64,000 bases of DNA from Elusimicrobiota bacterium (GCA_051745145.1 JBNJDT010000006.1:2545-66544); one strand, 5' to 3'; numbered from the stretch's first letter, positions 3,944-45,921 are shown. Translations and numbers: made by a program. The notes: generated from the sequence alone by a model not told the origin.

Positions 3944-5647
3944 TTACTGAACCATTTTGTCAATCATAAGTCTTGCTTTATTATTATCCGGATCCAGTTT
4001 TAGAACCTTTTCAAACTTTCTGGCCGCTTCCTTTAACCTTCCCCGGTGGTAGTATATATACCCCAGATTAAAATGGGCGTCTACAAGGTCGGGGTTCTGC
4101 TCCAGCGCCTTTTTATAATACTTTATTGCTCTATTTTGCTGACCTACAGTATAGTATATATTTCCCATGTTATTATACGCCCCGGTCAATGTACCGTCAA
4201 GCTCAACAGCTTTCTTGAAATTTTTTATTGCTCTCTTAAACTTTTTTTCCTTAGCCAGAATCCAGCCCAATTTATAATACGCTAAAGGATTTTCAGAATC
4301 TCTTTTAATTATTTCCCTCAATTCCTGTCTGCTGTATTCCCTGGCGGTATCAAAAAAACTTACTTTATTATCCTGCCTGCGCTTTAAAATAAGGGGCCGG
4401 ATAACTTTCTGGCTCCAGAAAACTAAAAGACCCAATATCACCAATGTAGTTACTGCTTTAATCCTATTTAGAGAAAAAGAAAATTCAGAAGCTTCTCGTT
4501 CCCAGCCTGAAACTATTCCCATCAATGTAAATACCCATATGCTGGATACGGCAAAACGCATATTGACAGAGACAGTGCTGTGAATTAATATCGCCGTCAC
4601 CCCGCAAAGCAAACTCTTGGATATATAGTCCCCCGGCTCCGTAGACTTTAAAACTGCTATATAAAAAATAACTAAAAACCATAAATACAGGCCCAGCCCA
4701 ACAATACCCGTCTCCGCGAAAATTTCAAGAAACTCATTGTGAACATAATTTACTATGAAACTGCCGGGCGGGTAAACCTTTCTTAACTCCCCGGAGGCGT
4801 ACTCCGGAAACTCAAGATGAAACTCGCCTATGCCCACTCCCGTAAACGGGTTTTCCAAACCCATCTTTACCGTATCCCGCCATATCAGCAGCCTATGGGT
4901 ATCTCTCATCCACTGGTTGCGGGAGACAAACGCAAAAATTATTATACCCAGAATAATTAAAACCGACGGCCATTTTGAAACCCTGTTTTTTCCCCATACG
5001 ATATACCATAGCAGCAGGGCTCCCATTATTCCCAGCCAGGCCCCCCGGGTGCCCGTAAAATACAGGGCAGTCACCATCGCAACGAGGGAGGCAAGCAGCC
5101 AGATTTTTTTCTTATTTTTTAAAAACAGCACCCCGGACAGGGGAATACACCCGATGAGAAAGGATCCGAAAAAATTGGGATTGCCGAAAGTAGCATGCAC
5201 CCGTCCCATTTTGGGAACTTTAAGATAACCCACCCCTCCGTATCTTTGAAGTACGCCGTAAAGCCCTATTAATCCCCCCATTATTACCAAAATTTCCAGT
5301 ATTTTTTTATCCCGGGGAAATGTTTTGTAGGCAGTAATAAAGGCCAGTAAGCTAAAAAGAATACGCTGCCACTCGCCGTAAGCCGATGGCCTATTATCGG
5401 AAACCAGATAAAAAACGGTATACAGCAAAAAAAGTGAGATGACCGGCCAGAGTAAAGTATCGGAATATATTTTTTTCAGCCGGTTAAACCGGAAAAATAT
5501 CCATCCCCCAAAGATCAACATTATGGATAAATACATTCCTGTTAACTTATAGCGGGCCAGTTTTACATCAGCTAAAAATATAAGGGAAAAAAAGAAAATA
5601 AGCCAGGATAATTTAAAGAATATCTCCCCGGTGCTATTTTTTTTCAT
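3944..5647 (-). CDS. O-antigen ligase/Wzy_C-family membrane protein with C-terminal TPR repeats
   Basis: About 12 hydrophobic segments; ATFGNPNFFG, TGTRGAW, NPFTGVGIG, YVHNEFLEIFAETG motifs; 3 TPRs (AYYKLG..., AYNNMG..., AHFNLG...). Confidence 0.85.
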   Translation of the reverse strand: MKKNSTGEIFFKLSWLIFFFSLIFLADVKLARYKLTGMYLSIMLIFGGWIFFRFNRLKKIYSDTLLWPVISLFLLYTVFYLVSDNRPSAYGEWQRILFSLLAFITAYKTFPRDKKILEILVIMGGLIGLYGVLQRYGGVGYLKVPKMGRVHATFGNPNFFGSFLIGCIPLSGVLFLKNKKKIWLLASLVAMVTALYFTGTRGAWLGIMGALLLWYIVWGKNRVSKWPSVLIILGIIIFAFVSRNQWMRDTHRLLIWRDTVKMGLENPFTGVGIGEFHLEFPEYASGELRKVYPPGSFIVNYVHNEFLEIFAETGIVGLGLYLWFLVIFYIAVLKSTEPGDYISKSLLCGVTAILIHSTVSVNMRFAVSSIWVFTLMGIVSGWEREASEFSFSLNRIKAVTTLVILGLLVFWSQKVIRPLILKRRQDNKVSFFDTAREYSRQELREIIKRDSENPLAYYKLGWILAKEKKFKRAIKNFKKAVELDGTLTGAYNNMGNIYYTVGQQNRAIKYYKKALEQNPDLVDAHFNLGYIYYHRGRLKEAARKFEKVLKLDPDNNKARLMIDKMVQ

Positions 5648-7245: not shown

Positions 7246-9888
7246 TTATTTGCGTAATTTCAAAGCCGGAATTTCAATAGCTCCGCCCCAGCGATTACCG
7301 CCTAATACCCTTCCTTGCGAAGCACCGGACGGTAAAATGACATCCAAAATATTTGTATCCGATTCCTCTCTTCGACCGGTAATTGTAACGGTAGATTTTG
7401 TATCATCATATTCTATATTCTGAACTTCTCCTTTTTCATCGTCAAAAGCCAGAACTACCGGTATGACATTAAAATTTTCCAGGGAAGCGGAAATAATTTC
7501 ATCGGGTATGAAAATATTAATTTTATTCTCAAACGGACTTACACTTACCTCAGGCTCGCCAATCTTTTCAAAAGAAGTATTGTAAATCGCCTTGTGCCAT
7601 CCGCTTACAGAAATACAGTATTCCCAGGCGTCTTCGGAAGTAGTATAGGCCTTACGGTTGGGTAGCAGTTCGGTGCTGCCCGAACCGGAAATATCATTTA
7701 TATCTATATATAAATCCACTGCCGGATAACTAAATCCGTACGGCGCTTCCCGGGAATTATCCAACTGTCCCATCTCTATTCTAACAACTTTCTGTTTTTT
7801 CCTTCGTTCCAACTGTATCCCTCTAAAATCAAAATTACTCTTTTTTTCTTCTAACTTTTCCGGGTATTCATAATTACCCGGTCCGTAATTATCATCGGAC
7901 GGATCCACATAAGATGCTAAAACATTAGTATCTCCGAATTCCGGTGCGGTCATTACATGATAGTTTTCTTCCGGAAAAATTTCCTTATTCCTATAAAATT
8001 TAAAATATATCCTTTCATTGGCATTTACACCCATATACTTAAAAGGAACGGTAAACTCAACATAATTATCTTTAAATTCCACGTCATAATGTCCGGTTAA
8101 ATGTTCCCAGGACTTATTACCCGATGCCCTGTAAATATTAATTTTAGAAGGATTGTCCAGTCGCCACCTGGCTTCTATATATATCGGAAAATCCTGTATA
8201 TTATCTACAGTTATTTTATCCTCAAAACGGGGCATTAAAGCCGGAGATCCCGCACTTGTAAATCCCATAAGCACCCCGGTCTTATTCACTGACCGGGTAG
8301 AAATTTCCATCATAAAATAGAGATTATCTTTATCCATACCGGTATATATTTGTTCTATTCCTTTAACCGGTTTCTCCAATTTTAAGGCTCCATCCCATTC
8401 ATCTTCACTTACTACGCCGTCGCTTTTAACATTTACCATTTTAGTCATTTTTTTATCGGGGATAGCTGGCTCTTTTTCTATAATCGGTAAAAAATATTTT
8501 CCGGGCGGGGAATTTTCCGTAAGACGGTAAATATCCAGCAAGTTATTCCGGAAAAACCTGTCTTCTCTTATTTTTTCAAGATTATCCTGAAGTAATCCGG
8601 ATTCGACTTTTAATAATTTCTCCTGGGCTTTTTTAAGATTATCCAGCCTGCCCCGGCCGGAATTTTTATATTCTTCTATAACAGGATAAATTTCCTCTAA
8701 TATACTTTTAATTTTCCCCAGTCTGCCCTCCAGGTTCACCCCCACTAATGTAAAAGAAGCCGTACTTAAATCAACTGACTTCTCATTATAAGAGCTTATA
8801 TTTTCTTTAAATTCTTCGAAATTTATATAATTTAACAGATTGGCATTCAAAAAAGATTCTAACTGAGTAAGTTCACAAATAATAGATATCGGCGACATCT
8901 CCCGGGGCAGCCTTCCGGCCATATCAATAACTGCAGTCGCCTTATGATTATTGTAAAAGTAACTGTCAGTGAAAATTATTTGAGGGGTAGTATTTATATA
9001 TTCGGTAGTAGTTGTGGAAAGAACGGTTACCCACTTAAGCGAAGTGCGTTCCAGAAGATCAATACTTTCTCTGCCCGAATAGCCCTTGCGGGGTATAAAG
9101 CCTGAAGGAAAATTCCCCCTCCATTTTTTGTAACTTATTAAACTCTCCATAATCTGGGCCCGGATTCTTTTTTCATTAAGAATTTCAAGATAGGCGTCAC
9201 TCAAAGAAGTTGTGGCTTCCCCGATATTATCCCTGTCTAATAAATCCACTAATGTCTGTTCGAAATTTAGTAGTTTTTCCTCCATAAATTCCAAAACTGC
9301 ATTTTTATCGGAAACCGTATAAGAACTTTTTTCAACAATTTCATTTATCGGCTCCGTTTTCAGTAAAAAATCTCCGAAATAGCTCAGCGCTTCTTCTACC
9401 TGGTAATTAATTATAGTATTTGTATCAGGCTCCATATCGTATTTACCGGTTAAATTATTAATCTGTGATTCATCCAGCCGGTCCGGCGCGTCAGTTATCA
9501 AAGAGGGTAATTTTAACTGTTTCTTTTCTAATTTCTTTAATTGCTCTATTACCGGATAAGATATATTTAAAGTCGCATAAAAATTATTCTTTTTATTCTG
9601 TAAAAGATTTACCGGTTTTTGCCAGGGCCCAAGAATCTTCCTGTAAAACTCATCGGGTTTTCCCGTATCTTTATATTGCAGGCTTACTGTAAGAAAAACA
9701 TCTTTCCCGGTTATTTCTTCTTTTACCTCTTCGCTTTTTTCTCTAAACATTATTTCCTCGGGGGGAATAACTGTTATATTCGGTCCTGCACAGCCAAACA
9801 GAATAAAGATGAAAAATAAAACCGGGGCTTTTCTAATTAGTCTCATCATCAATCTTTTGAAGTTCAATATTAAATTCCTTTTCTTCAC
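7246..9888 (-). CDS. Lipoprotein resembling a GH57 amylopullulanase, with DOMON-like/glucodextranase C-terminal domains; catalytic motifs degenerate
   Basis: Lipobox LFGC; C-terminal DPSDDNYGPGNYEYP, FSYPAVDLYID, AWEYCISVSGW typical of amylopullulanase/glucodextranase C-domains; true start probably at a later Met (MMRLIRK). Confidence 0.6.
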   Translation of the reverse strand: MKKRNLILNFKRLMMRLIRKAPVLFFIFILFGCAGPNITVIPPEEIMFREKSEEVKEEITGKDVFLTVSLQYKDTGKPDEFYRKILGPWQKPVNLLQNKKNNFYATLNISYPVIEQLKKLEKKQLKLPSLITDAPDRLDESQINNLTGKYDMEPDTNTIINYQVEEALSYFGDFLLKTEPINEIVEKSSYTVSDKNAVLEFMEEKLLNFEQTLVDLLDRDNIGEATTSLSDAYLEILNEKRIRAQIMESLISYKKWRGNFPSGFIPRKGYSGRESIDLLERTSLKWVTVLSTTTTEYINTTPQIIFTDSYFYNNHKATAVIDMAGRLPREMSPISIICELTQLESFLNANLLNYINFEEFKENISSYNEKSVDLSTASFTLVGVNLEGRLGKIKSILEEIYPVIEEYKNSGRGRLDNLKKAQEKLLKVESGLLQDNLEKIREDRFFRNNLLDIYRLTENSPPGKYFLPIIEKEPAIPDKKMTKMVNVKSDGVVSEDEWDGALKLEKPVKGIEQIYTGMDKDNLYFMMEISTRSVNKTGVLMGFTSAGSPALMPRFEDKITVDNIQDFPIYIEARWRLDNPSKINIYRASGNKSWEHLTGHYDVEFKDNYVEFTVPFKYMGVNANERIYFKFYRNKEIFPEENYHVMTAPEFGDTNVLASYVDPSDDNYGPGNYEYPEKLEEKKSNFDFRGIQLERRKKQKVVRIEMGQLDNSREAPYGFSYPAVDLYIDINDISGSGSTELLPNRKAYTTSEDAWEYCISVSGWHKAIYNTSFEKIGEPEVSVSPFENKINIFIPDEIISASLENFNVIPVVLAFDDEKGEVQNIEYDDTKSTVTITGRREESDTNILDVILPSGASQGRVLGGNRWGGAIEIPALKLRK

Positions 9889-10228
9889 CGGCCCTTAAAT
9901 CTATATTCCGTTCTTCTTTTTTATATCCAGGTTTTACAAGGGTAAGCAAAAATTTGCCGTTGGACTTTGCCGAAACCACACTGAACTCAACCGGGGTTCT
10001 TCCTTTTAAATATCCGTCTATAAAAACTTTTGCCCGGGAAGGATGGGAACTGACTTTAGCTTGAGCCGGCTCAGGTTTTTTAGGATCTTCCCGATCGGAA
10101 AATTCATCCTCTTTCGGCTCAATTCTTCCATAGTCTGAACCGGTAATATAACTGTACAAGTTTATAACCGTTACCCCCAGGCCTGCTGTATTTAATATAA
10201 GTATTACTATAAGTACTATTTTTTTCAT
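9833..10228 (-). CDS. Membrane-anchored PEGA-domain protein
   Basis: N-terminal TM; VSSHPSRAKVFIDGYLKGRTP...KPGY PEGA signature. Confidence 0.85.
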   Translation of the reverse strand: MKKIVLIVILILNTAGLGVTVINLYSYITGSDYGRIEPKEDEFSDREDPKKPEPAQAKVSSHPSRAKVFIDGYLKGRTPVEFSVVSAKSNGKFLLTLVKPGYKKEERNIDLRAGEEKEFNIELQKIDDETN

Positions 10229-10746
10229 TTTTCCATATTCTTTAAATAACTGTTCAATTTAGCAACATTACTGTTTAAAGTAGTAAAAATTTCTCTTAAA
10301 ATTTCTATATCCGAAGAAATTGCGGAAATTTTCTTAACATCATCCCGGAAATTTTCCAGCTGGGACCGTTCTTTTTTAACAAGGGAAAATATTTTTTTCG
10401 TTCCGTTCTTTATTACTTTTATGTTTTTGTCATTTACTTGGAGGGAACCGCTTTCCCGAATAGTTTCATCAAAACCATCCAGCTGTTTCTCTATCTCTTT
10501 TAACTTATCTAAAACTCCCCACAACTGATCTTCAAGCTTATCGTTTTTCCTATCCACTGCTTTTAACGCTCGGATGAGTTCTTTAAATTTTTCTTCGTCC
10601 GCACTGCTGCTCGCGCCTCCGGCTATTTTTTCTTTTGACTGAATAATTTTCCATACTAAAGACCATAAAATAAAATTCAGCGCCGCAAATAATATGGCCA
10701 AAATTGCAAATATTACGGCCGGATTAAGTTGTTCTGTTATCCCCAT
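10225..10746 (-). CDS. Hypothetical single-TM coiled-coil protein
   Basis: N-terminal TM followed by heptad-rich helix; SD-like GGAG upstream; 4-nt overlap with PEGA gene. Confidence 0.7.
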   Translation of the reverse strand: MGITEQLNPAVIFAILAILFAALNFILWSLVWKIIQSKEKIAGGASSSADEEKFKELIRALKAVDRKNDKLEDQLWGVLDKLKEIEKQLDGFDETIRESGSLQVNDKNIKVIKNGTKKIFSLVKKERSQLENFRDDVKKISAISSDIEILREIFTTLNSNVAKLNSYLKNMEK

Positions 10747-14799: not shown

Positions 14800-15435
14800 T
14801 TATATTATATTGCGTTTTTTCAAAACTTGTACTAATTCAGAATGCAAAACCGACTTAGATTTTTCTGCATCCAATACCACAATATCATCATTTTCTTTAC
14901 TCAGTTTCAAATACCCCTCTCTGACTCTCTTGTGAAACTTTATGTTTTCCGATTCCAATCTATCCAGTTCGCTCCCGGAATCTTTTGTTCTTTGAAGACC
15001 TTTTGCCGCTTCTATATCAAATATAAAGGTTATATCGGGTTTCACTCCCCCGGTGGATATACTGTTTAATTTTCGTATCAGCCCCAGGTCCAGCTTTCTT
15101 CCGTATCCCTGATAAGCTAAACTAGCATGGATATACCTTTCGCATATAACATATTTATTAGATTCCAGCGCCGGATTAATAAGTTCCTCGGTGTGCTGGG
15201 CCCGTCCCGCGGCGTATATAAGCAGTTCAGCCCGGGGATAAATTTTACTGTCCGGGTTTAAAAGCATCTCTCTTAACTGCTCGGCTATACTTACCCCTCC
15301 CGGTTCCCGGGTCCATACCGCCGGATAGCCGTTTTCTTTTAAATAGTTTGACAGCATCCTTGCCTGAGTTGATTTTCCCGCTCCTTCGGGGCCTTCTAAA
15401 GTTATAAATTTACCTCTGTTTTTTTGGGATTTCAT
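14800..15435 (-). CDS. tmk: Thymidylate kinase
   Basis: FITLEGPEGAGKSTQ, TREPGG, CERYIHAS, KPDITF. Confidence 0.96.
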   Translation of the reverse strand: MKSQKNRGKFITLEGPEGAGKSTQARMLSNYLKENGYPAVWTREPGGVSIAEQLREMLLNPDSKIYPRAELLIYAAGRAQHTEELINPALESNKYVICERYIHASLAYQGYGRKLDLGLIRKLNSISTGGVKPDITFIFDIEAAKGLQRTKDSGSELDRLESENIKFHKRVREGYLKLSKENDDIVVLDAEKSKSVLHSELVQVLKKRNII

Positions 15436-15438
15436 TTT

Positions 15439-15933
15439 TTAATTTCCTTTTAATCCTCTTAACATAATTTTCTGGGAAAGACTGGCTCTCTTATCGCTCT
15501 GAGTTACGGTAAGCGTAGCACCGACGTGAGCGTATTTTGACGACGTACCGGTGGTTAGGTAAACATAAAAATCATCTACTCCGCCCTCGACTAAGGTAGT
15601 GGTGGAATTTCTCATCATTCTGCGCAAATTATTTCCCGCCTGAAAATACTTCACTGTATTATCTCCCCCCCAATCTGATGTGGAAATTGATATTTTAAAT
15701 TTTATGGAATTATTACCGTCTATCTGGGGTAATTCCGAAGCCTGGCGTACATATCTTGAAAGCTCGTTTAAGGCTATCCTGGACTTACTGTGTACATCAA
15801 CAGAATCACTGGTCATCCACCATATATCAAAAGTATTTCTGAAAAATCTCGCTGTCCCGTAACTTAAAATACCTATTACCGCTATCGAAATTGCCAGTTC
15901 TATAAATGTTACACCTTTATTAGATTTAATCAT
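15439..15933 (-). CDS. Type IV minor pilin/pseudopilin, PilW/PulJ-like
   Basis: Class III signal peptide KG|VTFIELAISIAVIGIL with Glu at +5. Confidence 0.8.
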   Translation of the reverse strand: MIKSNKGVTFIELAISIAVIGILSYGTARFFRNTFDIWWMTSDSVDVHSKSRIALNELSRYVRQASELPQIDGNNSIKFKISISTSDWGGDNTVKYFQAGNNLRRMMRNSTTTLVEGGVDDFYVYLTTGTSSKYAHVGATLTVTQSDKRASLSQKIMLRGLKGN

Positions 15934-18245
15934 TTAACCACCACAACCTTTTCTGTCTCCTCCACTCCGTTAAGCTGTATATTAATAAAGTACGTACCGC
16001 TGGCTACTGTATCACCGCTTTGGGTAACGCCGTACCAATTGCAGATTCCCGGCCCTTTAGATACATACCCCTCTTTTAATGATTTTACCAATTCTCCCAT
16101 AATATTAAAGACCCTTAATTTAATATATCCTTCTTCCTGGACAACATAATCTATAGTGGCGGCCTGCCGGCCGGGACCGGGATCCCGGATAAAATTATTA
16201 TCAACAGAAAGCAGTTCAACCGGGGTTACGGTTTCGCTCCAGTTTGACCAGCCCGAATGGGGACCGTCATGGGTATAATGCTGAGATTCCGGATCCCACA
16301 AAACATTTTCATCATCGGCTCCTTCAAACTGCCCGGTTTTATAAGTTTCGGTGGCCAGATCCGGTTCGGTAAAACCGTGGCGGGTTTTACACCTTATACG
16401 GTAAGATTTATTGTAGTCCCCCTCATACATATATATGCGACTGCCCTCGGGACCCCAGGTAGAGGAAGTTCCCTCTTCCCATAATTCCTTTGACTCTACA
16501 ATTTTCCCGTTCTCTTCTATCTCTATATAAGCTCCGTAAATCCCCGTCTGGGGATCCCGGGATGTACCCCAATCCAGATTAAATTCTATATTTTTATCGT
16601 ATATAAACTCCCCGGGAATACCCGGCTTTGAAGGATACCCCACCGGGGGGGAAGTATCTATTAATACCTGCTGTTCGGACCAGCCGCTGTAATCGGGATT
16701 GGCCCATGAATAGCCCAGTCCGGTATCTATGGTCTGGACCGCCCAGTAGTAGTCCGAGCCGGAAATATCCATTGCCCGGATATTCTTATACTCCCCTAAA
16801 ATTATTCTGTCTGAAATATTCTCAATTGTATCTGAAGTAACTTTTGTCAAATAATTGCCCATCAACGGAGAGCCATAACTTCGGGAGACCAGGTTGTCGG
16901 TTCCCGAGGAGGTGCCCACTCTGAAATTATAATACACTCCATTTTTCGGGGTTTCGGTATCCGCTTTAGGGGGATCGTTCCACATAATATAAAGAGTCTC
17001 ATCATAATAGCGGGTCTTAAAATCCTCTACTTTAGAGGGAAGATTATTCTTATCATAGTCTGCCGAATCCACATCATTTTTAAATAATTTCACGTGCGGT
17101 GTTTCACTATCATCTTCTCCCGTTACGACAAGATCTAAAGCTTTACTGTTATTGTAATCGGCCCAGTTTACAGAACCGCGGTGCAACCCTAAATTACTAT
17201 CCGGCTCTATATAACTGTTAAACGTATCCGAACCGCTGTATACTCTTAAGAGCGGTTCAGTACTGCCGTTCCCCGAAATTGCAAGATCCAGACTCCCGTC
17301 GTTATTATAATCCCCGAAGGCCAGATCGCTGTTATACACCCCCGGTAAATTAAAGGTACCGGAGCTAAAAGAAATAGAAGCTGTCTTTTGATTAGTATAT
17401 ATTACCGTGGCATCCCCGCTTTCAGTAGTTCCGGCCATGGCCAGGTCCATCCACCCGTCATTATTATAGTCCCCGGCAACTGCCGTCCCCTGGGCAAATC
17501 CCTCTTCTATGATAGCGCTCTCACCTGAGGAAATATTTTCTTCAAATGATTCTCCGCTGTTATTTTTATATATAACAGTTATCGAAGCATTTTCTTCATC
17601 CTGGCCTATGCCCACCAGATCCATCCACCCGTCGTTATTTAGATCCGCCCACATTAAATCCTGGGCAGAAAACTTTGTGCTAAATTCTACATATTCTCGG
17701 GTAAATCCTTCTCCGTCATTGGTGTATAAAATAGGTTCATTAGCAGACCGGGATCCCACCGCCAGATCAGCAAAACCGTTATTATTAAAATCACCGGCTG
17801 CAACAGAAGCGGCATCCAGGTGAGTTAACTTCCGCACAAGTTCAAATTCCCCGTTATTATTTTTATATATCCAGACATTCTCCCCTGTACCATCATAGCC
17901 GGCCATAACTAAATCCAGAGTTCCGCTGTTATCTATATCCACCCAGAGGACATCTCCGTAATGCAGTGACTGAAGATTTATATCTTTTAAGCCGTGATCT
18001 TCAATTTTCTCAAAAGATGTCCCGTTGTTTTTATATAAAATAGTACGGCGGTTGTCTTCGCTGTCTCTCCCTACCATTATAAGATCCCAGTATCCGTTGT
18101 TTGTATAGTCCCCCCATGCAGATGCCGACTGGGCCAGGGGAACGGCTACATCGTTGAAATTTGTATCTTCTATAAATCCGGCAAAAACTTTTCCGGAAAT
18201 TAGAAAACAGAGACTTATTAATGTTATGGTTTTTAATAAATTCAC
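15930..18245 (-). CDS. Secreted FG-GAP/VCBS 7-blade propeller protein with FnIII-like domains and a C-terminal FlgD-Ig/T9SS-sorting-like domain
   Basis: Sec signal; seven (W/A/F)xD(Y/F/L/I)xN(D/N/S)GxxDL-type repeats; C-terminal IKLRVFNIMGELVKSL...WYGVTQSGDTVASGTYFINI...EKVVVVK. Confidence 0.8.
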   Translation of the reverse strand: MNLLKTITLISLCFLISGKVFAGFIEDTNFNDVAVPLAQSASAWGDYTNNGYWDLIMVGRDSEDNRRTILYKNNGTSFEKIEDHGLKDINLQSLHYGDVLWVDIDNSGTLDLVMAGYDGTGENVWIYKNNNGEFELVRKLTHLDAASVAAGDFNNNGFADLAVGSRSANEPILYTNDGEGFTREYVEFSTKFSAQDLMWADLNNDGWMDLVGIGQDEENASITVIYKNNSGESFEENISSGESAIIEEGFAQGTAVAGDYNNDGWMDLAMAGTTESGDATVIYTNQKTASISFSSGTFNLPGVYNSDLAFGDYNNDGSLDLAISGNGSTEPLLRVYSGSDTFNSYIEPDSNLGLHRGSVNWADYNNSKALDLVVTGEDDSETPHVKLFKNDVDSADYDKNNLPSKVEDFKTRYYDETLYIMWNDPPKADTETPKNGVYYNFRVGTSSGTDNLVSRSYGSPLMGNYLTKVTSDTIENISDRIILGEYKNIRAMDISGSDYYWAVQTIDTGLGYSWANPDYSGWSEQQVLIDTSPPVGYPSKPGIPGEFIYDKNIEFNLDWGTSRDPQTGIYGAYIEIEENGKIVESKELWEEGTSSTWGPEGSRIYMYEGDYNKSYRIRCKTRHGFTEPDLATETYKTGQFEGADDENVLWDPESQHYTHDGPHSGWSNWSETVTPVELLSVDNNFIRDPGPGRQAATIDYVVQEEGYIKLRVFNIMGELVKSLKEGYVSKGPGICNWYGVTQSGDTVASGTYFINIQLNGVEETEKVVVVK

Positions 18246-18248
18246 TGT

Positions 18249-19214
18249 TTAAAAATTGACAGTAAACATTAAAGTATGCTCACTGTTCATCGCCTGGGCA
18301 ATGCCCATTCCATAATCAAATTTAAAACGGCTGTACTTTACTCCCGCTCCCCAGGTAAAATTTTTTATCTCATAATTAAACCGGTATCCGGACCGGAGAA
18401 AAAACATATCTCGGTATATATATTCGAATCCCGTATTTATCCTTATTATTTCACTTCCAAAATTATAAGTTGAATCCAGACTGATAAGAGAAGCATGCTC
18501 TTCATTAAAAATAGCAGGATAACTCACTCCCCCTTTTATTAAAGTGGGTAAAGGATCAGTAGCCCCTTCTTTTGTATAACCTACCCCCTTTCCCATATTT
18601 AATACCGACATACCCGCTCTTATTCCCGGAGAAAATATTCTTCCGTATACATTTTTGTTTCCCGTTTTGAAAAATGGGGTGTCCCATAAAAATCCCCCGT
18701 CAATCGATAAAGCAGCAGTTTCATAAGTTTCCAGTAAAGTTGAAGTATAATATCTTACTTTTAACCCCCCGTACATTTTCGGAGAAATTTTTGCTCCGTA
18801 GCCAGCTGAATAAACCATATCCTCCTGGGTTATAAAACTCTCTTCGTGCAAATCTTCGTAGCGACCGGCTGTATCATCTATGGTTATCTTTCCCCCAACA
18901 TAGCCCAGTGTGTCAATAGCAATACTGCCCGGCCCTACATTTAAAGCTCCTCCCGCATATCCCACCACCGAATCCAAAAAAGCCTCGTAGAAAACAGCAG
19001 AAACTGCATTTTTCTTTAAAGTTCCAAGCTGCGCCGGATTTAACCCCGTTGCGGTATAATCTCCCATAAAAGAGACCCCGCTCTCTCCGAGTGCATTTAC
19101 CCGGGGGGAGGGACAGAATTTTAATATCGGCGCCCCGGTACTTCCGTTTGAATAAAGGGGCTGTAAATTTAAAATAAATACCGGGATAAAAAAAAGGATT
19201 TTTCTGAAAAACAT
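18249..19214 (-). CDS. PorV/PorQ (UPF0164)-family outer-membrane beta-barrel
   Basis: Signal peptide; N-terminal GAPILKFCPSPRVNALGE...NPAQLG; LRSGYRF, FTWGAG, FDYG strands; C-terminal Phe (TVNF). Confidence 0.78.
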   Translation of the reverse strand: MFFRKILFFIPVFILNLQPLYSNGSTGAPILKFCPSPRVNALGESGVSFMGDYTATGLNPAQLGTLKKNAVSAVFYEAFLDSVVGYAGGALNVGPGSIAIDTLGYVGGKITIDDTAGRYEDLHEESFITQEDMVYSAGYGAKISPKMYGGLKVRYYTSTLLETYETAALSIDGGFLWDTPFFKTGNKNVYGRIFSPGIRAGMSVLNMGKGVGYTKEGATDPLPTLIKGGVSYPAIFNEEHASLISLDSTYNFGSEIIRINTGFEYIYRDMFFLRSGYRFNYEIKNFTWGAGVKYSRFKFDYGMGIAQAMNSEHTLMFTVNF

Positions 19215-19243
19215 TTCCTATTGCATAGCCGTCAAATTTTGTC

Positions 19244-20509
19244 TTATCTCTCAGACCAGCTCAATACCGTTATTATCCCGGAAGAATATTCACTGTCTTT
19301 TAAAGGGGGCATGAACATATCATCAGAATAAGTAATTTCCACATTGGAAGAGGCTTCCAGATCTCCTCCCACGGCCAGCATTCCGGTCATCTCCACATTT
19401 GAAGCCAGGTTGGCATCTCCCGGACACTGAATTATCCCCACCGGATCCACATTGGACTCCATATTAATATCTATCCCGTCCTTCCACTCATCCTCATTGT
19501 CTTTATCTCCGGCAACTACCCAGTTAATCCGCCCGTCACCGCTTACATTAGATCTAACATTAATGCCGTGGTAAGAAGGATTATCATCCGGCCCTACTAC
19601 AAAATTTCCGTCCCCTTCTAATGTTACATTGGAATCTATATTAATACCGTTGGGATAATAATAGGTTCCCCCGTTCAAATCATATGTGTTTCCCGATTCA
19701 AAATTAGCCCGGCCATCGGTAACGGTAAGATCCCCGCCAAAATCATAATTTTCAACTCCTTCGGCAATTAAAGCGGCGGCATCTACAATCTCATAGTCAT
19801 CGATTGGATCGGTTTTTTCGGAAGTGTCATTTTCTTCCCAGTGTACATCGTCCGGTATCTGATTGGAATTCCATATCTCATTTCTGGCCAGTATTTCTCT
19901 GATGCCGGTGGCGTTATTATCCGGGTCAAAATCAAAATTATTTCCCAGATCTATAGAGTACTGCCCCCCGTCATAAGCCCCGTACAGGGCCACATTCCCC
20001 TCACTGTCGGGTTTAAATACCACTCCAGTTTCTACAAAAATCTTATCGCTGGAATAAATTACTCCCCGGACTACAGTATTCGAATTAAAAGTGGATTGTC
20101 CTTCTGTCAGGGTGGCATACTGGGGTAAGCCCGCCGATACTTTAATCCGGGCCCTGATAGCCCTTTCCCCCCGGGACCGGGACTTAGAGGGAACATAGCC
20201 GGTTGAATTTATGGTGTATGTACTCCCGGACTTAGTTACAAAGACTTCAGCTACGCCCGACCGGCTACCCGTTGCCGTCCCCACGTTTATGGTAAAATCC
20301 CCGTCATCTTTGTCACGCAACCTATAAATCGCTCTTTCCACACCGGCGTCGGCTACATACAGGGCTTTTTCGGATAGCCGCTGATCTGTACCGCTTTTAG
20401 TTTCAAACCAGGTGAGCATCATCATAGCGCTGCCAAGTACTACCACCACCATCATAAGGAGTATCGTACCCACCAGCGCCATACCCTTATTGTTTTTAAA
20501 ATTTCTCAT
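19244..20509 (-). CDS. PilX/GspK-like minor pilin with repetitive C-terminal domain
   Basis: KG|MALVGTILLMM prepilin site lacking E5; ALYVADAGVERAI PilX-N motif; ends in VLSWSER. Confidence 0.8.
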   Translation of the reverse strand: MRNFKNNKGMALVGTILLMMVVVVLGSAMMMLTWFETKSGTDQRLSEKALYVADAGVERAIYRLRDKDDGDFTINVGTATGSRSGVAEVFVTKSGSTYTINSTGYVPSKSRSRGERAIRARIKVSAGLPQYATLTEGQSTFNSNTVVRGVIYSSDKIFVETGVVFKPDSEGNVALYGAYDGGQYSIDLGNNFDFDPDNNATGIREILARNEIWNSNQIPDDVHWEENDTSEKTDPIDDYEIVDAAALIAEGVENYDFGGDLTVTDGRANFESGNTYDLNGGTYYYPNGINIDSNVTLEGDGNFVVGPDDNPSYHGINVRSNVSGDGRINWVVAGDKDNEDEWKDGIDINMESNVDPVGIIQCPGDANLASNVEMTGMLAVGGDLEASSNVEITYSDDMFMPPLKDSEYSSGIITVLSWSER

Positions 20510-20512
20510 CTT

Positions 20513-20899
20513 TTACTCATAGGCAGCCATATACGTTACTAACCTGCTGCTGCTGGAGCCTTCTGAAGTTTCCCAGGTAACTTCAACTTCTATCTCTTTT
20601 AAACCGTTTTCTATTTCTATTACCTTCACCGACCGGGTAAATTTTTTGTTTTTTCCGAGAACTTCGGTTTCACTGCTCCAGGTGCCGGTACTCAGGTCGG
20701 TATAATAATAGGACTTTACCTCTTCCATTTTATCTGCCGCCCAGCTGGAGGCCAGGGTTCTTAAGTTAGTTTCATTTAAAGCAATATTATTTTTGATAAA
20801 CAGTTGAGCGAAAGCCGTTGATATAATACTGATTATTGCCACCGCTAACATAATTTCAATATAAGTTATACCCCGGTTATACTTTCGTTTAAAATTCAT
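20513..20899 (-). CDS. Type IV minor pilin, PilV/GspI-like
   Basis: RG|ITYIEIMLAVAII class III signal; LASSWAADKMEE; KEIEVEVTW. Confidence 0.82.
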   Translation of the reverse strand: MNFKRKYNRGITYIEIMLAVAIISIISTAFAQLFIKNNIALNETNLRTLASSWAADKMEEVKSYYYTDLSTGTWSSETEVLGKNKKFTRSVKVIEIENGLKEIEVEVTWETSEGSSSSRLVTYMAAYE

Positions 20900-20908
20900 G
20901 GTATTATA

Positions 20909-20937
20909 ATATTAACTTACAAAGTAAGTTTATTCAA
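20909..20937 (-). promoter_or_regulatory. Putative sigma70 promoter TTGAAT-N17-TAATAT with a 7-bp palindrome in the spacer, upstream of the pilin cassette
   Basis: Minus strand: TTGAAT (20937-20932), TAATAT (20914-20909); AACTTAC-AAA-GTAAGTT at 20914-20930. Confidence 0.45.
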
Positions 20938-20951
20938 TAAGTAAAAAATTT

Positions 20952-21368
20952 TTAGCCTATTGTAACTTCACCGGATGCAGCTACTTTTTCATCTACTAAT
21001 ACCTGACCGCTGAATTTAAAAGTACCTTTTTTTTCCTCTTCAAGATTGACCTGTATCTCTATTATATCATCGGGCTGAATAGTATGACGGAATTTTACTT
21101 TATTTACGCTCTTTAATTTTAAATCATCCCGTTTCATCACCGCCATTGCTGTCTGGGCTATGCTCTCTATTATAATCACCCCCGGCATAACCGGTCGTTC
21201 GGGGAAATGTCCCTCAAAAAAATAGTCATCGTAAGTTAACTTTTTTATACCCCGGCCCTTTTTCCCCACTTCTTTAATATATACCCTATCAATAAACAGA
21301 TAGGGAGGGGCATAGGGGAGAATTTCTTTAAGTTGCCGGTTTTTTAATAATTCTTCTTTTTTTCTCAT
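20952..21368 (-). CDS. fabZ: 3-hydroxyacyl-ACP dehydratase FabZ
   Basis: FFEGHFPERPVMPGVIIIESIAQ, VKFRHTIQPDD hot-dog fold. Confidence 0.88.
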   Translation of the reverse strand: MRKKEELLKNRQLKEILPYAPPYLFIDRVYIKEVGKKGRGIKKLTYDDYFFEGHFPERPVMPGVIIIESIAQTAMAVMKRDDLKLKSVNKVKFRHTIQPDDIIEIQVNLEEEKKGTFKFSGQVLVDEKVAASGEVTIG

Positions 21369-43770: not shown

Positions 43771-45921
43771 ATGCCTAACTTAGCAGGAGCTTTTATCGGG
43801 GGGATGATAACTACCTTATTTATCTTATTATTTCGTGTAGTATATACTATATCTGGGATTCCTATGGTCCATATTCCAGTAGTATTTGCCCTGTTTTTTA
43901 TAGAACTTTTTGGTGGTTTTATACTATTTAAAAAATTTCATCCTTATTTTGACAAGTTAAGAATCTTTTATTTTGCTTCTACTGTTTACTCCATTTATAT
44001 TCCTCTATTCTTAGTACTGTTTATAATCGAAAAACCACTATTGGGGTTTACTTTTTATCACTCCCTTCCCGGGTATGCTGTATATTTTTTCCCTCTTTTC
44101 CTTATGCTTCCCCTCGCCTTGGCTGCGGGAGTAATTTTAAATTACATTATTAAACAAAATAATTACACTATCCTGTCATTCATTATTGGGAGTATATTTA
44201 TAGTACTGATTGATATAGTTTTTCTTCATTCTCTGCCCCTTCTCTATTTAGCCCTAACTGGATCAATATTAGGTTTTATTATGTTGTCTTTAAACTCTCC
44301 TGAAACAGCTCCCAAATATTTTTTCGGTTTTACGGCAATCTTATATTTATTTATAGTATTCAGTCCTATTACAAAAACCGTCCCCGACATAATTAATTCT
44401 TTTACTCGGGATCCTGATATTGAATTTATAGATTCGGTCATTACTCCGTACGGTGAATTAAATTTATTTAAGGAAGCTCAGGATTATTTTACTACAATTA
44501 ATCATACCAAATTATCGACTTATCCGGACACAAAAAATTCTCAGGAGTTCGTACATGCTACTTTACCGCATTATCCATGGGCTGAAAAAGTACTTGTAAT
44601 AGGTGGAAATAATACTATCATTTCAGAAATTTTAAAATATCCGGATATAAAAAGCATACACTGGACTTCGCCGGTCCCCGAGAATTTCAATCTAATCTCT
44701 AAAAATTTATCTTCCAGCCTTGAAGCCACAAAAACACTTCGCCTTCGATATATTAAGAATTCTGAGGCTCGTTTACTGATAAAGAAACTAAAAAACGAAA
44801 ATAGTTTTGATGTTGTATTCATTGCCCTTCCTGATCCCACTAATATTTTTTTTAATAGATTTTATACCCAGGAATTTTTTGAAAAACTAAAAACTACCAT
44901 GTCAAATAATTCTATAATTTCTCTTTCGCTGCAAACCAGTAAAACCAGTACAAAAATGTATACAAAAAAATTAGCTGGCTCTACCTTTAAAACTTTAAAA
45001 GAGAGTTTCCCCCATACCCTGGAGATGTATGATAAAAAAACTTATATTATAGCCTCTCATAATAGAACCTTTGCAACATCTTTTGCAGCTCTCTACCAAT
45101 TTTTAAACACACTGGACAATATGCCAGAATTTGTTACCCCTGCCTTTTTAAGATACATGTTAAGCACGCAAAAAGAGGCCAAAAAATTTCTACACTCAGA
45201 TACAGTTACTTTTAATACAGACCATACTCCGGCTTCTCTACAATATTCGTTTTCCCAATTTGTATTATTTTCAAACTTACTGCCAAATTCTTTAATTATA
45301 TATATGGAATATATGGATTTAGTTTATCTATATTTTTTTACTTTTATATTTATTTTTCTTTTATTTATTAAGAGTAAGAAAGATAAAAATATCATCTCCA
45401 GAATCGACAATATCTTAATTATGAAAACTTTTAATACAGGAGTATTCTTATATATTTTAATAATTATAACTCAAACTATATACGGTGAAATTTTTTCCCA
45501 TATTTCAATAATTACGGCCGGCTTATTAGCGGGCGCTATACTAAGTTTCTTCCTGTTAAAAAAACAGAAAAAATACCCGGCCTACTCGAAGCTAAAAATT
45601 TGTTCTTTAATTACAGGTGTGCTCTTAATTTTAATAACTATTTTATTTAAAACTCTTCTTTCTGATTTCGGCATAGTTACAATAATTCTAATATCTTTAA
45701 TTGGAGGAATTTTATCGGGCAGTAATTTTACTATTATAAACGAAATTTACAGAAATTCAGAACAACAAGTTACCCCCCAACACATTAGTTTTATTTTAAC
45801 GGGAAGTCTACTTCTTGCATGTCTTGCGGCAGTATTTATAATTCCATTTATTGATATAATTTGGGTACTAACGGCTCTAGGTATTATAAGTTTTAGCGAA
45901 ATTATTATTTTAAAAGCTTAA
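43771..45921 (+). CDS. Membrane protein with a central spermidine-synthase-like domain (fused MFS-like/SpeE family), degenerate
   Basis: TM bundles flank TPYGEL...QEFVH...KVLVIGG...ALPDP...NRFYTQEFF. Confidence 0.72.
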   Translation: MPNLAGAFIGGMITTLFILLFRVVYTISGIPMVHIPVVFALFFIELFGGFILFKKFHPYFDKLRIFYFASTVYSIYIPLFLVLFIIEKPLLGFTFYHSLPGYAVYFFPLFLMLPLALAAGVILNYIIKQNNYTILSFIIGSIFIVLIDIVFLHSLPLLYLALTGSILGFIMLSLNSPETAPKYFFGFTAILYLFIVFSPITKTVPDIINSFTRDPDIEFIDSVITPYGELNLFKEAQDYFTTINHTKLSTYPDTKNSQEFVHATLPHYPWAEKVLVIGGNNTIISEILKYPDIKSIHWTSPVPENFNLISKNLSSSLEATKTLRLRYIKNSEARLLIKKLKNENSFDVVFIALPDPTNIFFNRFYTQEFFEKLKTTMSNNSIISLSLQTSKTSTKMYTKKLAGSTFKTLKESFPHTLEMYDKKTYIIASHNRTFATSFAALYQFLNTLDNMPEFVTPAFLRYMLSTQKEAKKFLHSDTVTFNTDHTPASLQYSFSQFVLFSNLLPNSLIIYMEYMDLVYLYFFTFIFIFLLFIKSKKDKNIISRIDNILIMKTFNTGVFLYILIIITQTIYGEIFSHISIITAGLLAGAILSFFLLKKQKKYPAYSKLKICSLITGVLLILITILFKTLLSDFGIVTIILISLIGGILSGSNFTIINEIYRNSEQQVTPQHISFILTGSLLLACLAAVFIIPFIDIIWVLTALGIISFSEIIILKA

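What the first reader, a model, noticed from the sequence alone, without database searches (positions are those of the whole stretch)
15439..20899. Hybrid cassette: minor pilins PilV-PilX-PilW with an embedded PorV-like barrel and a T9SS-tagged propeller adhesin in place of PilY1
Seen: five tightly coupled genes (gaps 3, 29 and 3 nt, then a 4-nt overlap) in the order pilV-like, pilX-like, PorV/PorQ barrel, FG-GAP propeller protein, pilW-like, running into tmk. Known: type IVa minor-pilin operons (pilV-W-X) normally encode the beta-propeller tip adhesin PilY1. PorV is the T9SS shuttle that binds CTD-bearing cargo in Bacteroidota. Inference: a 7-blade propeller of a different family occupies the PilY1 slot and comes with its own PorV-like barrel. 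This suggests a system coupling a pilus or pseudopilus to PorV/CTD-type outer-membrane display. I know of no description of this combination.
Basis: partly seen in the sequence, partly recalled or inferred. Interest (0 to 1): 0.85.

Follow-up and report, generated by a model that had tools for sequence, protein, structure and literature searches.

The report
Pilin operon with PorV-like anchor
An uncultured clade of Elusimicrobiota carries a conserved, expressed five-gene operon that mixes three pilus-tip-type pilins with an outer-membrane barrel and a tagged propeller protein otherwise typical of the Bacteroidota type IX secretion system; I found no description of this combination.

Summary
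Five minus-strand genes lie at 20899-15439, with gaps of 3, 29 and 3 nt, a 4-nt overlap, then 3 nt to tmk. They encode:
- a GspI/PilV-like pilin;
- a PilX_N/GspK-type pilin without Glu5;
- a PorV/PorQ-family 14-strand barrel, whose best structural match is PorV (TM 0.77) rather than FadL;
- a secreted seven-blade FG-GAP propeller ending in a T9SS type-A-like C-terminal domain (CTD), borderline on the curated cut-off;
- a second Glu5 pilin, weakly GspJ/PilW-like.

The interleaved order recurs in every relative recovered, all Elusimicrobiota where labelled. It persists down to 32% identity of the PilX-like protein, always between a fabZ-like gene and tmk. Salt-lake metatranscriptome contigs bridge three of the four junctions.

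"In place of PilY1" is only a positional analogy, because no PilY1 domain is detected. CTD cargo next to a PorV-family barrel also occurs elsewhere without pilins.

My best reading (confidence 0.42) is that the pilins form the tip of a type IV filament built by genes outside the window, and that the barrel tethers the propeller at the surface by its CTD, as PorQ holds PorZ. Physical coupling is not shown. The window has no filament or T9SS machinery, and the rest of the genome could not be surveyed.

The parts
20513..20899 (-). GspI/PilV-like minor (pseudo)pilin, 128 aa. Class III signal ...NRG|ITYIEI with Glu5.
   Evidence: N_methyl and T2SSI hits. TIGR01707 GspI 9.1e-7 over residues 10-110, 29.3 bits against a cut-off of 44; PilV 8.6e-4. 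Among the ten I-like and J-like pilins scanned together, the PilV model matched 6 and the GspI model 5. Prepilin motif confirmed.
19244..20509 (-). PilX/GspK-type minor pilin, 421 aa. N-terminus ...NKG|MALVGT lacks Glu5. Large C-terminal domain with six SN[VT] motifs (possibly a beta-helix; my inference) and a conserved end ..SWxE.
   Evidence: PilX_N 34.2 bits, above the 25.5 cut-off. GspK N-terminus 2.3e-5. Motifs. An exhaustive HMMER search found 14 representatives at E<=1e-30 and 26 at E<=1e-10, of which roughly twenty match over nearly the full length; the one named member is Elusimicrobiota.
18249..19214 (-). PorV/PorQ-family 14-strand outer-membrane beta-barrel, 321 aa, with a signal peptide, an N-terminal plug region and a C-terminal Phe.
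   Evidence: NF033709 133.2 bits (cut-off 90); Pfam PorV 29.7 bits (cut-off 27). Only PDB sequence hit is PorV 6h3i_F, 1.4e-9. AF2 model has pLDDT 81.9 and 14 strands. Foldseek top hit is PorV 8gl6_F, E 1.4e-15, TM 0.77.
15930..18245 (-). Secreted 771-aa protein. Signal peptide (..GKVFA|G), seven-blade FG-GAP propeller (about residues 40-390), a conserved middle region of unknown fold (about 400-685), and a T9SS type-A-like / FlgD-Ig-like C-terminal domain (about 686-771).
   Evidence: FG-GAP_3 at 6.5e-32 and seven repeats. CTD scanned alone: TIGR04183 23.0 bits against cut-off 23, plus matches to the CTD portions of the PorU and PorZ models. CTD profile against PDB: FlgD 1e-6, PorU CTD 1.6e-4. 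The AF2 C-terminal half is poor overall (pLDDT 39.6), but the last ~80 residues score 62-83 for most of their length (51 in the final partial block) and form seven strands.
15439..15933 (-). Second Glu5 minor (pseudo)pilin, 164 aa (..NKG|VTFIEL), weakly GspJ/PilW-like. Overlaps the propeller gene by 4 nt and ends 3 nt before tmk.
   Evidence: N_methyl 22.0 bits (cut-off 21.2). GspJ 0.028; best ortholog 1.3e-5. Verru_Chthon cassette protein C 1.1e-5 in orthologs. Motif.
20900..20951 (-). 52-nt intergenic region upstream of the first pilin gene; probable start of the transcription unit.
   Evidence: The longest metatranscriptome contig in run X1 ends at 20910, 11 nt upstream of the ATG. Depth falls from 19.6 to 3.7 and then 0 further upstream. 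Sequence. The promoter scan gave no convincing sigma-70 site here.

Best explanation
What is shown. This is one conserved, co-expressed operon in a clade of uncultured Elusimicrobiota from salt- or soda-lake and sediment samples. It has two sets of parts. The first is three type IV-filament minor pilins of the I/K/J tip-complex class: a GspI/PilV-like pilin, a Glu5-less PilX/GspK-like cap with a large extra domain, and a GspJ/PilW-like pilin. The second is a cargo-and-anchor pair: a Sec-exported seven-blade FG-GAP propeller with a T9SS-type-A-like CTD, and a PorV/PorQ-family barrel.

Inferred mechanism:
1. A prepilin peptidase processes the three pilins. They form the tip or initiation complex of a pilus or pseudopilus, built by an ATPase, platform and secretin encoded outside this window.
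2. The folded propeller reaches the cell surface with the help of that filament, either as a T2SS-like substrate pushed by the tip or as a tip-associated passenger.
3. The PorV-like barrel binds the propeller's uncleaved CTD and holds it on the outer membrane, in the way PorQ holds the propeller protein PorZ and PorV holds PorU in Porphyromonas.
4. The calcium-motif FG-GAP propeller and its middle domains act as the adhesin or ligand-binding head.
For: - Identity of the parts.
- Tight or overlapping spacing in the window and in relatives. L001 has an 18-nt gap, a 3-nt gap and a 4-nt overlap. L072 has an 8-nt overlap, a 3-nt gap, a 4-nt overlap and a 1-nt overlap.
- The interleaved order I-K-barrel-propeller-J is kept in every locus recovered. 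In L072, identities to the window are 52% (I-like pilin), 32% (PilX-like), 44% (barrel), 37% (propeller) and 48% (J-like pilin), while tmk is 67%.
- The genes further upstream differ between loci (glnS in the window; gidA, PilZ and PAP2 genes in L009 and L072), yet the cassette stays intact.
- In run X1, metatranscriptome contigs bridge three of the four gene junctions plus the junction with tmk: PilV-like/PilX-like, barrel/propeller and propeller/J-like pilin/tmk. The contig over the PilX-like/barrel junction ends about 56 nt inside the barrel gene, and the barrel's 5' third is poorly covered. Depths are 9-20 over most of the cassette against 0-4 in the flanks, and three further runs also carry it.
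- Precedent for a CTD tether: PorU and PorZ are anchored through PorV and PorQ (PMC5562754), and PorZ consists of two seven-blade propellers plus a retained CTD (PMC5121618).
- Precedent for large proteins encoded next to pilK homologs joining tip complexes (PMC13533445).
Against: - No interaction was tested, and no multimer model could be run.
- The cargo+barrel pair occurs without any pilin gene in L007, L013 and L062, so it can work without pilins encoded next to it.
- No filament ATPase, platform, secretin or prepilin peptidase is in the 64-kb window, and the rest of the genome could not be surveyed. T9SS core genes elsewhere therefore cannot be excluded.
- All loci with the cassette share the same fabZ-like...tmk position, so part of the conservation is plain vertical inheritance.
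- The gene order departs from the near-invariant pilI-pilJ-pilK order (PMC13533445). The J assignment is weak.
- One distant PilX-like relative (27% identity, L073, a 2-kb contig) is not followed by a barrel.
Confidence: 0.42

Rival explanations
1. Two independent modules share one operon. The PorV-like barrel and the CTD propeller form a self-contained surface-display pair, exported by a T9SS-like or other route encoded elsewhere. The three pilins belong to an unrelated pilus or T2SS. They sit together only for co-regulation as surface or adhesion functions, or through an old insertion that was never separated.
For: The same cargo+barrel adjacency occurs without pilins. In L007 a 1890-aa Kelch propeller with a FlgD_ig CTD (28.2 bits) overlaps a barrel by 4 nt. 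L013 has a BNR-like CTD protein followed by two barrels. L062 has a barrel followed by a CTD protein. The CTD resembles ordinary T9SS type A tails. Every cassette locus sits in one syntenic housekeeping block, so order could persist by inheritance.
Against: The pair is inserted inside the pilin set, between the K-like and J-like genes, rather than beside it. It has translational-coupling distances on both sides, and this has survived divergence down to 32-37% identity. In the 2016 survey T9SS was found only in Bacteroidetes (PMC4793230). No T9SS gene is in the window.
Confidence: 0.35
2. The propeller is a true PilY1 analogue. It rides on the pilus tip, held by strand addition of its extreme C-terminus (..EKVVVVK) to the PilX/K-like pilin. 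The barrel serves the pilus itself, as an outer-membrane dock or exit aid, rather than tethering the cargo.
For: Large proteins encoded just after pilK homologs (PilY1, MshQ) donate a C-terminal strand to PilK (PMC13533445). The propeller's last strand is strongly conserved. A propeller adhesin at this position mirrors the pilVWX-pilY1 arrangement.
Against: No PilY1/PilC domain is detected. The conserved last strand is a general feature of T9SS-like CTDs, including those of unrelated loci, and is part of a folded beta-sandwich. The barrel gene, not the propeller gene, directly follows the K-like gene. The K-like protein has its own conserved C-terminal ..SWxE end, which could supply the strand in cis, as in GspK and CpaL (PMC13533445).
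Confidence: 0.13
3. The cassette is a decaying or non-functional remnant, or an artefact of ORF calling.
For: Several family scores are below the curated cut-offs.
Against: All five ORFs are intact in the loci that span them, across divergence down to 32-52% identity. Key motifs are conserved: the prepilin site, seven FG-GAP repeats, the CTD and the barrel's terminal Phe. The genes are covered by metatranscriptome contigs at higher depth than the flanks.
Confidence: 0.02

Closest known systems
T2SS GspI-GspJ-GspK and T4aP PilV-PilW-PilX tip/initiation complexes (with PilY1/PilC in T4aP)
   Same: There are three pilin-class proteins. Two have Glu5, and one larger protein lacks Glu5 and has a PilX_N/GspK-type N-terminus. 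They are encoded together with a large beta-propeller protein.
   Different: The order is I-K-...-J instead of I-J-K. There is no major pilin, GspH/FimU or machinery nearby. The propeller is of the FG-GAP type with no PilY1 domain and carries a T9SS-like CTD. A PorV-family barrel is embedded. Scores for the GspI/J and PilV/W models are below cut-off.
T9SS attachment sub-complexes PorQ-PorZ and PorV-PorU of Porphyromonas gingivalis
   Same: A PorV/PorQ-family barrel is paired with a surface protein built from seven-blade propeller(s) plus a beta-sandwich CTD. In PorZ and PorU that CTD is retained and used for anchoring (PMC5562754, PMC5121618). The CTD here also matches the CTD portions of the PorU and PorZ models.
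   Different: The organism is Elusimicrobiota, not Bacteroidota. The barrel fails the PorV and PorQ equivalog cut-offs (86.6 against 250; 56.9 against 220). The propeller is of a different family and single. No SprA, PorK/L/M/N or PorU is in view. The genes are adjacent and lie inside a pilin operon.
Cognate cargo/barrel gene pairs of T9SS (type B CTD cargo with adjacent PorP/SprF-family barrels, e.g. SprB-SprF in Flavobacterium; from my own knowledge, not checked here)
   Same: A CTD-bearing surface protein is encoded next to a private outer-membrane barrel that is presumed to recognise it.
   Different: Here the barrel is of the PorV/PorQ family and the CTD is type-A/FlgD-Ig-like. The pair lies outside Bacteroidota and among pilin genes.
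Tad pilus tip protein CpaL/TadG and the Verru_Chthon cassette (TIGR02596-02600)
   Same: There is a large pilin-like protein with an N-terminal pilin domain, a big middle domain and a C-terminal strand (CpaL; PMC13533445). Weak HMM matches link the 421-aa and 164-aa proteins to Verru_Chthon cassette proteins A and C. Tad systems are reported in Elusimicrobia (PMC6668835).
   Different: All matches are far below cut-off. There are no TadE/TadF or Flp signatures. Neither system is known to include a PorV-family barrel or CTD cargo.

Membership tests
Type IV filament minor pilins (GspI/J/K = PilV/W/X class) | Class III signal: Gly at -1, Glu at +5 (absent in the K/X member), and a ~20-residue hydrophobic helix | tested here: met
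   The motifs are G|ITYIEI (128 aa) and G|VTFIEL (164 aa). The 421-aa protein has G|MALVGT without Glu5. The motifs are conserved in orthologs.
Type IV filament minor pilins (GspI/J/K = PilV/W/X class) | Family HMMs above the curated cut-offs | tested here: inconclusive
   PilX_N passes (34.2 against 25.5). N_methyl passes for the 164-aa protein (22.0 against 21.2). GspI (29.3 against 44.35), PilV (19.8 against 52.2), GspJ (14.2 against 64.85) and GspK (24.1 against 130) all fail.
Type IV filament minor pilins (GspI/J/K = PilV/W/X class) | Globular domains with the GspI, GspJ or GspK folds | tested here: inconclusive
   PDB profile searches and hhalign against E. coli K-12 GspG-K matched only the N-terminal helix.
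Type IV filament minor pilins (GspI/J/K = PilV/W/X class) | Prepilin peptidase, assembly ATPase, platform and secretin present in the same genome | not testable with these tools
   None is in the 64-kb window. The rest of the genome is not available. Tad systems and PilD are reported in other Elusimicrobia (PMC6668835, PMC8809381).
PorV/PorQ family (NF033709; FadL-type 14-strand barrels of the T9SS) | Family-level HMM above cut-off | tested here: met
   NF033709 scores 133.2 bits against 90. Pfam PF19572 scores 29.7 against 27.
PorV/PorQ family (NF033709; FadL-type 14-strand barrels of the T9SS) | Structure closer to PorV than to FadL/TodX transporters | tested here: met
   The AF2 model has pLDDT 81.9 and 14 strands. 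Foldseek gives PorV 8gl6_F at E 1.4e-15 and TM 0.77. The next hits are TbuX, TodX and FadL at E 1e-7 or worse and TM 0.46-0.60. The only PDB sequence hit is PorV.
PorV proper / PorQ proper (equivalogs NF033710, NF033711) | Equivalog HMM above cut-off | tested here: not met
   The scores are 86.6 against 250 and 56.9 against 220. It is a family member but not an ortholog of either.
PorV proper / PorQ proper (equivalogs NF033710, NF033711) | Works with the SprA/Sov translocon and the PorK/L/M/N machinery | not testable with these tools
   No such gene is in the window and the genome is not available. T9SS was found only in Bacteroidetes in the 2016 survey (PMC4793230).
T9SS type A C-terminal sorting domain (TIGR04183 / PF18962) | HMM above cut-off at the extreme C-terminus | tested here: inconclusive
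   TIGR04183 scores 23.0 bits against a cut-off of 23 when the last 100 aa are scanned alone, but 13.7 in the whole protein. PF18962 scores 16.8 against 27 and FlgD_ig 22.9 against 27. The CTD profile hits the PorU CTD in PDB at 1.6e-4 and FlgD Ig domains at 1e-6.
T9SS type A C-terminal sorting domain (TIGR04183 / PF18962) | Seven-strand beta-sandwich fold | tested here: inconclusive
   The model is poor overall (pLDDT 39.6). The last ~80 residues score 62-83 for most of their length (51 in the final partial block) and form seven strands. Foldseek hits to FlgD, PorU and PorZ are weak, with E values between about 4e-4 and 4e-3.
T9SS type A C-terminal sorting domain (TIGR04183 / PF18962) | Binding by PorV, and cleavage or retention at the surface | not testable with these tools
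   This needs biochemistry or multimer modelling.
PilY1/PilC tip adhesins | PilY1/PilC C-terminal propeller domain | tested here: not met
   No such Pfam or NCBIfam hit at E<=1. The propeller is FG-GAP/integrin-alpha-like.
PilY1/PilC tip adhesins | Extreme C-terminal strand that completes the PilK-family beta-sheet | not tested
   This needs AF3 multimer modelling or experiments (PMC13533445). Both the propeller tail and the K-like protein's own tail are conserved candidates.
FG-GAP / integrin-alpha-type seven-blade propeller | Seven FG-GAP repeats with DxNxxGxxD calcium-type motifs | tested here: met
   FG-GAP_3 scores 110 bits with six stretches, and FG-GAP 53.6 bits. A regex finds seven repeats at residues 44-372. 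The PDB sequence hit is integrin alpha-4.

The most novel reading that the evidence does not exclude
PorV-type recognition of a CTD tag is not confined to the T9SS translocon. In this Elusimicrobiota clade, a type IV filament (pseudopilus or pilus) whose dedicated I/K/J tip is encoded in the same operon delivers a folded CTD-tagged propeller across the outer membrane. It hands the propeller to a private PorV-family barrel that keeps it on the surface. That would be a hybrid secretion-and-display pathway joining two systems so far regarded as unrelated.
Probability: 0.3. Interest if true: 0.85.

Novelty: new variant of a known kind. Interest (0 to 1): 0.68.

Why it matters
Every part belongs to a known family, but the arrangement has no description that I could find. 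PorV-family barrels and T9SS-like CTD tags are treated as Bacteroidota/T9SS features. Here they sit in another phylum, inside a pilus-tip operon that is conserved and expressed.

If the parts work together, three things follow:
- CTD/PorV recognition would be a portable surface-tethering device that can be plugged into other export machines.
- There would be a natural example of a type IV filament tip set dedicated to one cargo.
- There would be a handle on the cell-surface biology of an uncultured Elusimicrobiota lineage.

Even if the modules are independent, the recurring pair of CTD cargo and a private PorV-like barrel outside the classical T9SS context deserves a systematic survey.

Tried and rejected
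- **Word-index protein searches.** The barrel and the propeller's C-terminal half found only the close clade, then a jump to ~23% identity.
- **Metagenome scan with the propeller alignment.** It mostly returned generic FG-GAP proteins, because one of its two search patterns was the repeat motif. It was useful only as a negative control.
- **GTDB scan.** It returned three loci.
- **AF2 of the propeller's C-terminal half.** The two-sequence alignment gave pLDDT 39.6, so the middle region remains of unknown fold and the Foldseek output is not trustworthy beyond the CTD.
- **Pilin identity.** PDB profile searches and hhalign of the three pilin alignments against E. coli K-12 GspG-K recognised only the N-terminal helix, so I/J/K identities cannot be settled this way.
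- **Promoter and terminator scan.** Counts were no better than in shuffled sequence.
- **FadL-like transporter reading of the barrel.** Rejected.
- **Recent horizontal insertion.** Rejected. The cassette is syntenic across the clade, has no mobile-element genes, and shows only a mild GC rise (0.42-0.45 against 0.35-0.40).
- **Literature.** Searches for PorV or T9SS together with Elusimicrobia, minor pilins or FG-GAP gave nothing relevant.


Full report
**Observation.**
- 20899-20513 (128 aa)
- 20509-19244 (421 aa)
- 19214-18249 (321 aa)
- 18245-15930 (771 aa, GTG start)
- 15933-15439 (164 aa)

The spacings are 3, 29 and 3 nt, then a 4-nt overlap, then 3 nt to tmk (15435-14800). Nearly the whole 64-kb window is coded on the minus strand, and the neighbours are housekeeping genes. 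Upstream lie a fabZ-like gene, glnS, gltX and hisG. Downstream lie tmk, holB, a PSP1 gene and metG.

**The three pilin-class proteins.** The window contains only two canonical prepilin motifs: G|ITYIEI in the 128-aa protein and G|VTFIEL in the 164-aa protein.
- *128-aa protein.* It matches GspI over its whole length (E 9e-7) and PilV, but both scores are below the curated cut-offs. Among the ten I-like and J-like pilins scanned together, the PilV model matched six and the GspI model five.
- *421-aa protein.* It passes Pfam PilX_N (34.2 against 25.5 bits) and matches the N-terminus of GspK. Its N-terminus, G|MALVGT, lacks Glu5, as expected for the K/X cap subunit from established knowledge of GspK and PilX. 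Its C-terminal ~280 residues carry six SN[VT] motifs and end in a conserved ..SWxE.
- *164-aa protein.* It is only weakly GspJ/PilW-like; the best ortholog scores 1.3e-5.

Profile searches of the PDB and hhalign against E. coli K-12 GspG-K recognise nothing beyond the N-terminal helix. "An I/K/J-class tip set" is therefore a reasonable reading. The labels PilV, PilX and PilW are no better founded than GspI, GspK and GspJ.

**The barrel.** It passes the NCBIfam PorV/PorQ family model (133 against 90 bits) and Pfam PorV, but fails both equivalog models. A profile of four orthologs hits a single PDB sequence, Flavobacterium PorV (6h3i_F, E 1.4e-9). An AF2 model built from 13 sequences (pLDDT 81.9) has 14 strands and an N-terminal plug region. 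Foldseek puts PorV from the SprA-PorV-RemA-CTD complex first (8gl6_F, E 1.4e-15, TM 0.77), well ahead of TbuX, TodX and FadL (E 1e-7 or worse, TM 0.46-0.60).

**The propeller protein.** It has a signal peptide, followed by seven FG-GAP repeats with calcium-type motifs. A conserved middle region of about 290 residues could not be modelled (pLDDT 39.6). The C-terminal domain has the typical T9SS type-A / FlgD-Ig pattern. Scanned alone, it reaches TIGR04183 exactly at cut-off (23.0 bits) and also matches the CTD portions of the PorU and PorZ models. Its profile hits FlgD Ig domains (1e-6) and the PorU CTD (1.6e-4) in the PDB. No PilY1/PilC domain is detected.

**Lineage and conservation.** The GTDB scan labels two relatives "Elusimicrobia bacterium". 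One relative of the PilX-like protein is named Elusimicrobiota. The barrel family is a small isolated clade, at 48% identity or more, after which identity drops to about 23%.

Every locus recovered for that clade shows the same order and tight spacing, as far as the contig reaches: L001/L004, L005, L006, L009, L071 and L072. L072 was reached through the exhaustive HMMER search with the PilX-like protein. Its identities to the window are:

| Protein | Identity to window |
|---|---|
| I-like pilin | 52% |
| PilX-like pilin | 32% |
| Barrel | 44% |
| Propeller | 37% |
| J-like pilin | 48% |
| tmk | 67% |

The five genes there still run I-K-barrel-propeller-J with overlaps or 3-nt gaps, between a fabZ-like gene and tmk-holB-PSP1. 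Further upstream the context differs (gidA, PilZ and PAP2 genes instead of glnS). One still more distant PilX-like protein (27% identity, on a 2-kb contig) is followed by an unrelated gene on the other strand.

**Expression.** Several salt-lake metatranscriptome runs hold the region. In run X1, contigs cover most of 15294-20910. They bridge three of the four internal junctions (PilV-like/PilX-like, barrel/propeller, propeller/J-like pilin) and continue into the 5' end of tmk. The contig over the PilX-like/barrel junction ends at 19158, about 56 nt inside the barrel gene. The stretch 18794-19157, roughly the barrel's 5' third, is nearly uncovered in that run. Depths are 9-20 over most of the cassette against 0-4 in the flanks. 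The longest contig ends 11 nt upstream of the first ATG. Three further runs show the same genes.

Contigs carry no strand information, and their depth is only a rough measure. Even so, the uneven coverage argues for RNA rather than DNA carry-over, and for one transcription unit.

**What the pair looks like elsewhere.** The next-best barrels (about 23% identity) sit next to large secreted proteins without any pilin gene.
- L007: a 1890-aa Kelch propeller with a FlgD_ig CTD (28.2 bits) overlaps its barrel by 4 nt.
- L013: a BNR-like CTD protein is followed by two barrels.
- L062: a barrel is followed at once by a CTD protein.
- L012 and L008: large ORFs abut a barrel.

"CTD cargo plus a private PorV-family barrel" is thus a recurring module. 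In this clade it has been placed inside a pilin tip set. By contrast, none of 57 generic FG-GAP loci has a pilin motif.

**Mechanism.** Two facts frame the options.
- In Porphyromonas, PorU and PorZ stay on the surface because PorV and PorQ hold them. PorZ consists of two seven-blade propellers plus a retained CTD (PMC5562754, PMC5121618).
- In type IV filaments, I-J-K tip complexes are licensed by a terminal beta-strand. A tip adhesin encoded next to pilK supplies it in trans (PilY1, MshQ), or the K subunit supplies it in cis (GspK, CpaL) (PMC13533445).

My preferred model (confidence 0.42) is as follows. The three pilins form the tip of a filament made by machinery outside the window. The propeller reaches the surface with the help of that filament. 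The barrel then tethers it by its CTD.

The main rival (0.35) is that the barrel-propeller pair is autonomous and merely co-regulated with the pilins. A strict PilY1-analogue reading (0.13) is less likely for three reasons:
- The conserved last strand of the propeller is a general CTD feature.
- The barrel gene, not the propeller gene, directly follows the K-like gene.
- The K-like protein has its own conserved tail.

No interaction has been tested. The genome could not be surveyed for filament or T9SS core genes. T9SS was reported only in Bacteroidetes in the 2016 survey (PMC4793230), whereas Tad systems and PilD are reported in Elusimicrobia (PMC6668835, PMC8809381).

**Novelty and verdict.** Searches of the paper library for PorV or T9SS together with Elusimicrobia, minor pilins or FG-GAP gave nothing relevant. 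The parts are members of known families, and the combination is a new variant. The finding is real, conserved and expressed. Its naming of the pilins and the PilY1 analogy go beyond the evidence, and the proposed coupling remains a hypothesis that multimer modelling and a whole-genome survey could test quickly.

Noticed in passing
L007 332-6987; L013 638-4054; L062 2178-5252; L012 2617-5297; L008 2788-7044: Large secreted proteins, several with propeller domains and FlgD_ig/T9SS-like CTDs, are encoded directly beside PorV/UPF0164-family barrels in unrelated metagenome contigs with no pilin genes. This looks like a recurring 'CTD cargo + private barrel' module. The source phyla are unknown.
   Followed up: partly
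window 20952-21368 (and L001 7894-8316, L009 4340-4756, L072 5144-5566): A 138-aa FabA/FabZ-like (also ApeI-like) dehydratase gene lies directly upstream of the cassette in every locus, even where the genes further upstream differ. In metatranscriptome run X1 its depth is much lower than the cassette's, so it looks like a separate transcript.
   Followed up: partly
window 19244-20509: The gene order I-K-[barrel-propeller]-J departs from the pilI-pilJ-pilK order described as almost invariant (PMC13533445). The K-like protein has a ~280-residue extra domain with six SN[VT] motifs and a conserved ..SWxE end, which resembles the CpaL/GspK 'cis strand' layout.
   Followed up: partly
window 7246-10746: An 880-aa protein with a Glucodextran_C (SLH-like) module is followed by a PEGA-domain protein and a 173-aa ORF. 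The arrangement is conserved downstream of metG in L001. These are possible cell-surface or S-layer-type proteins.
   Followed up: no
window 1-64000: Almost every gene is on the minus strand, and GC skew is negative in every 2-kb bin. The one large plus-strand gene (43771-45921) encodes a 716-aa protein with a spermidine-synthase-like domain.
   Followed up: no
window 46851-48761 and 52111-53628: Two long ORFs (636 and 505 aa) have no Pfam match at E<=1e-5.
   Followed up: no
window 3944-5647: A 567-aa fusion of an O-antigen-ligase (Wzy_C) membrane domain with C-terminal TPR repeats.
   Followed up: no
window 15294-20910 in runs X1-X3 and X5: The organism is transcriptionally active in salt-lake samples. 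Related loci come from soda-lake sediment (L009; several SL_*_SED contigs) and other sediment metagenomes, which points to a saline or alkaline sediment habitat.
   Followed up: partly
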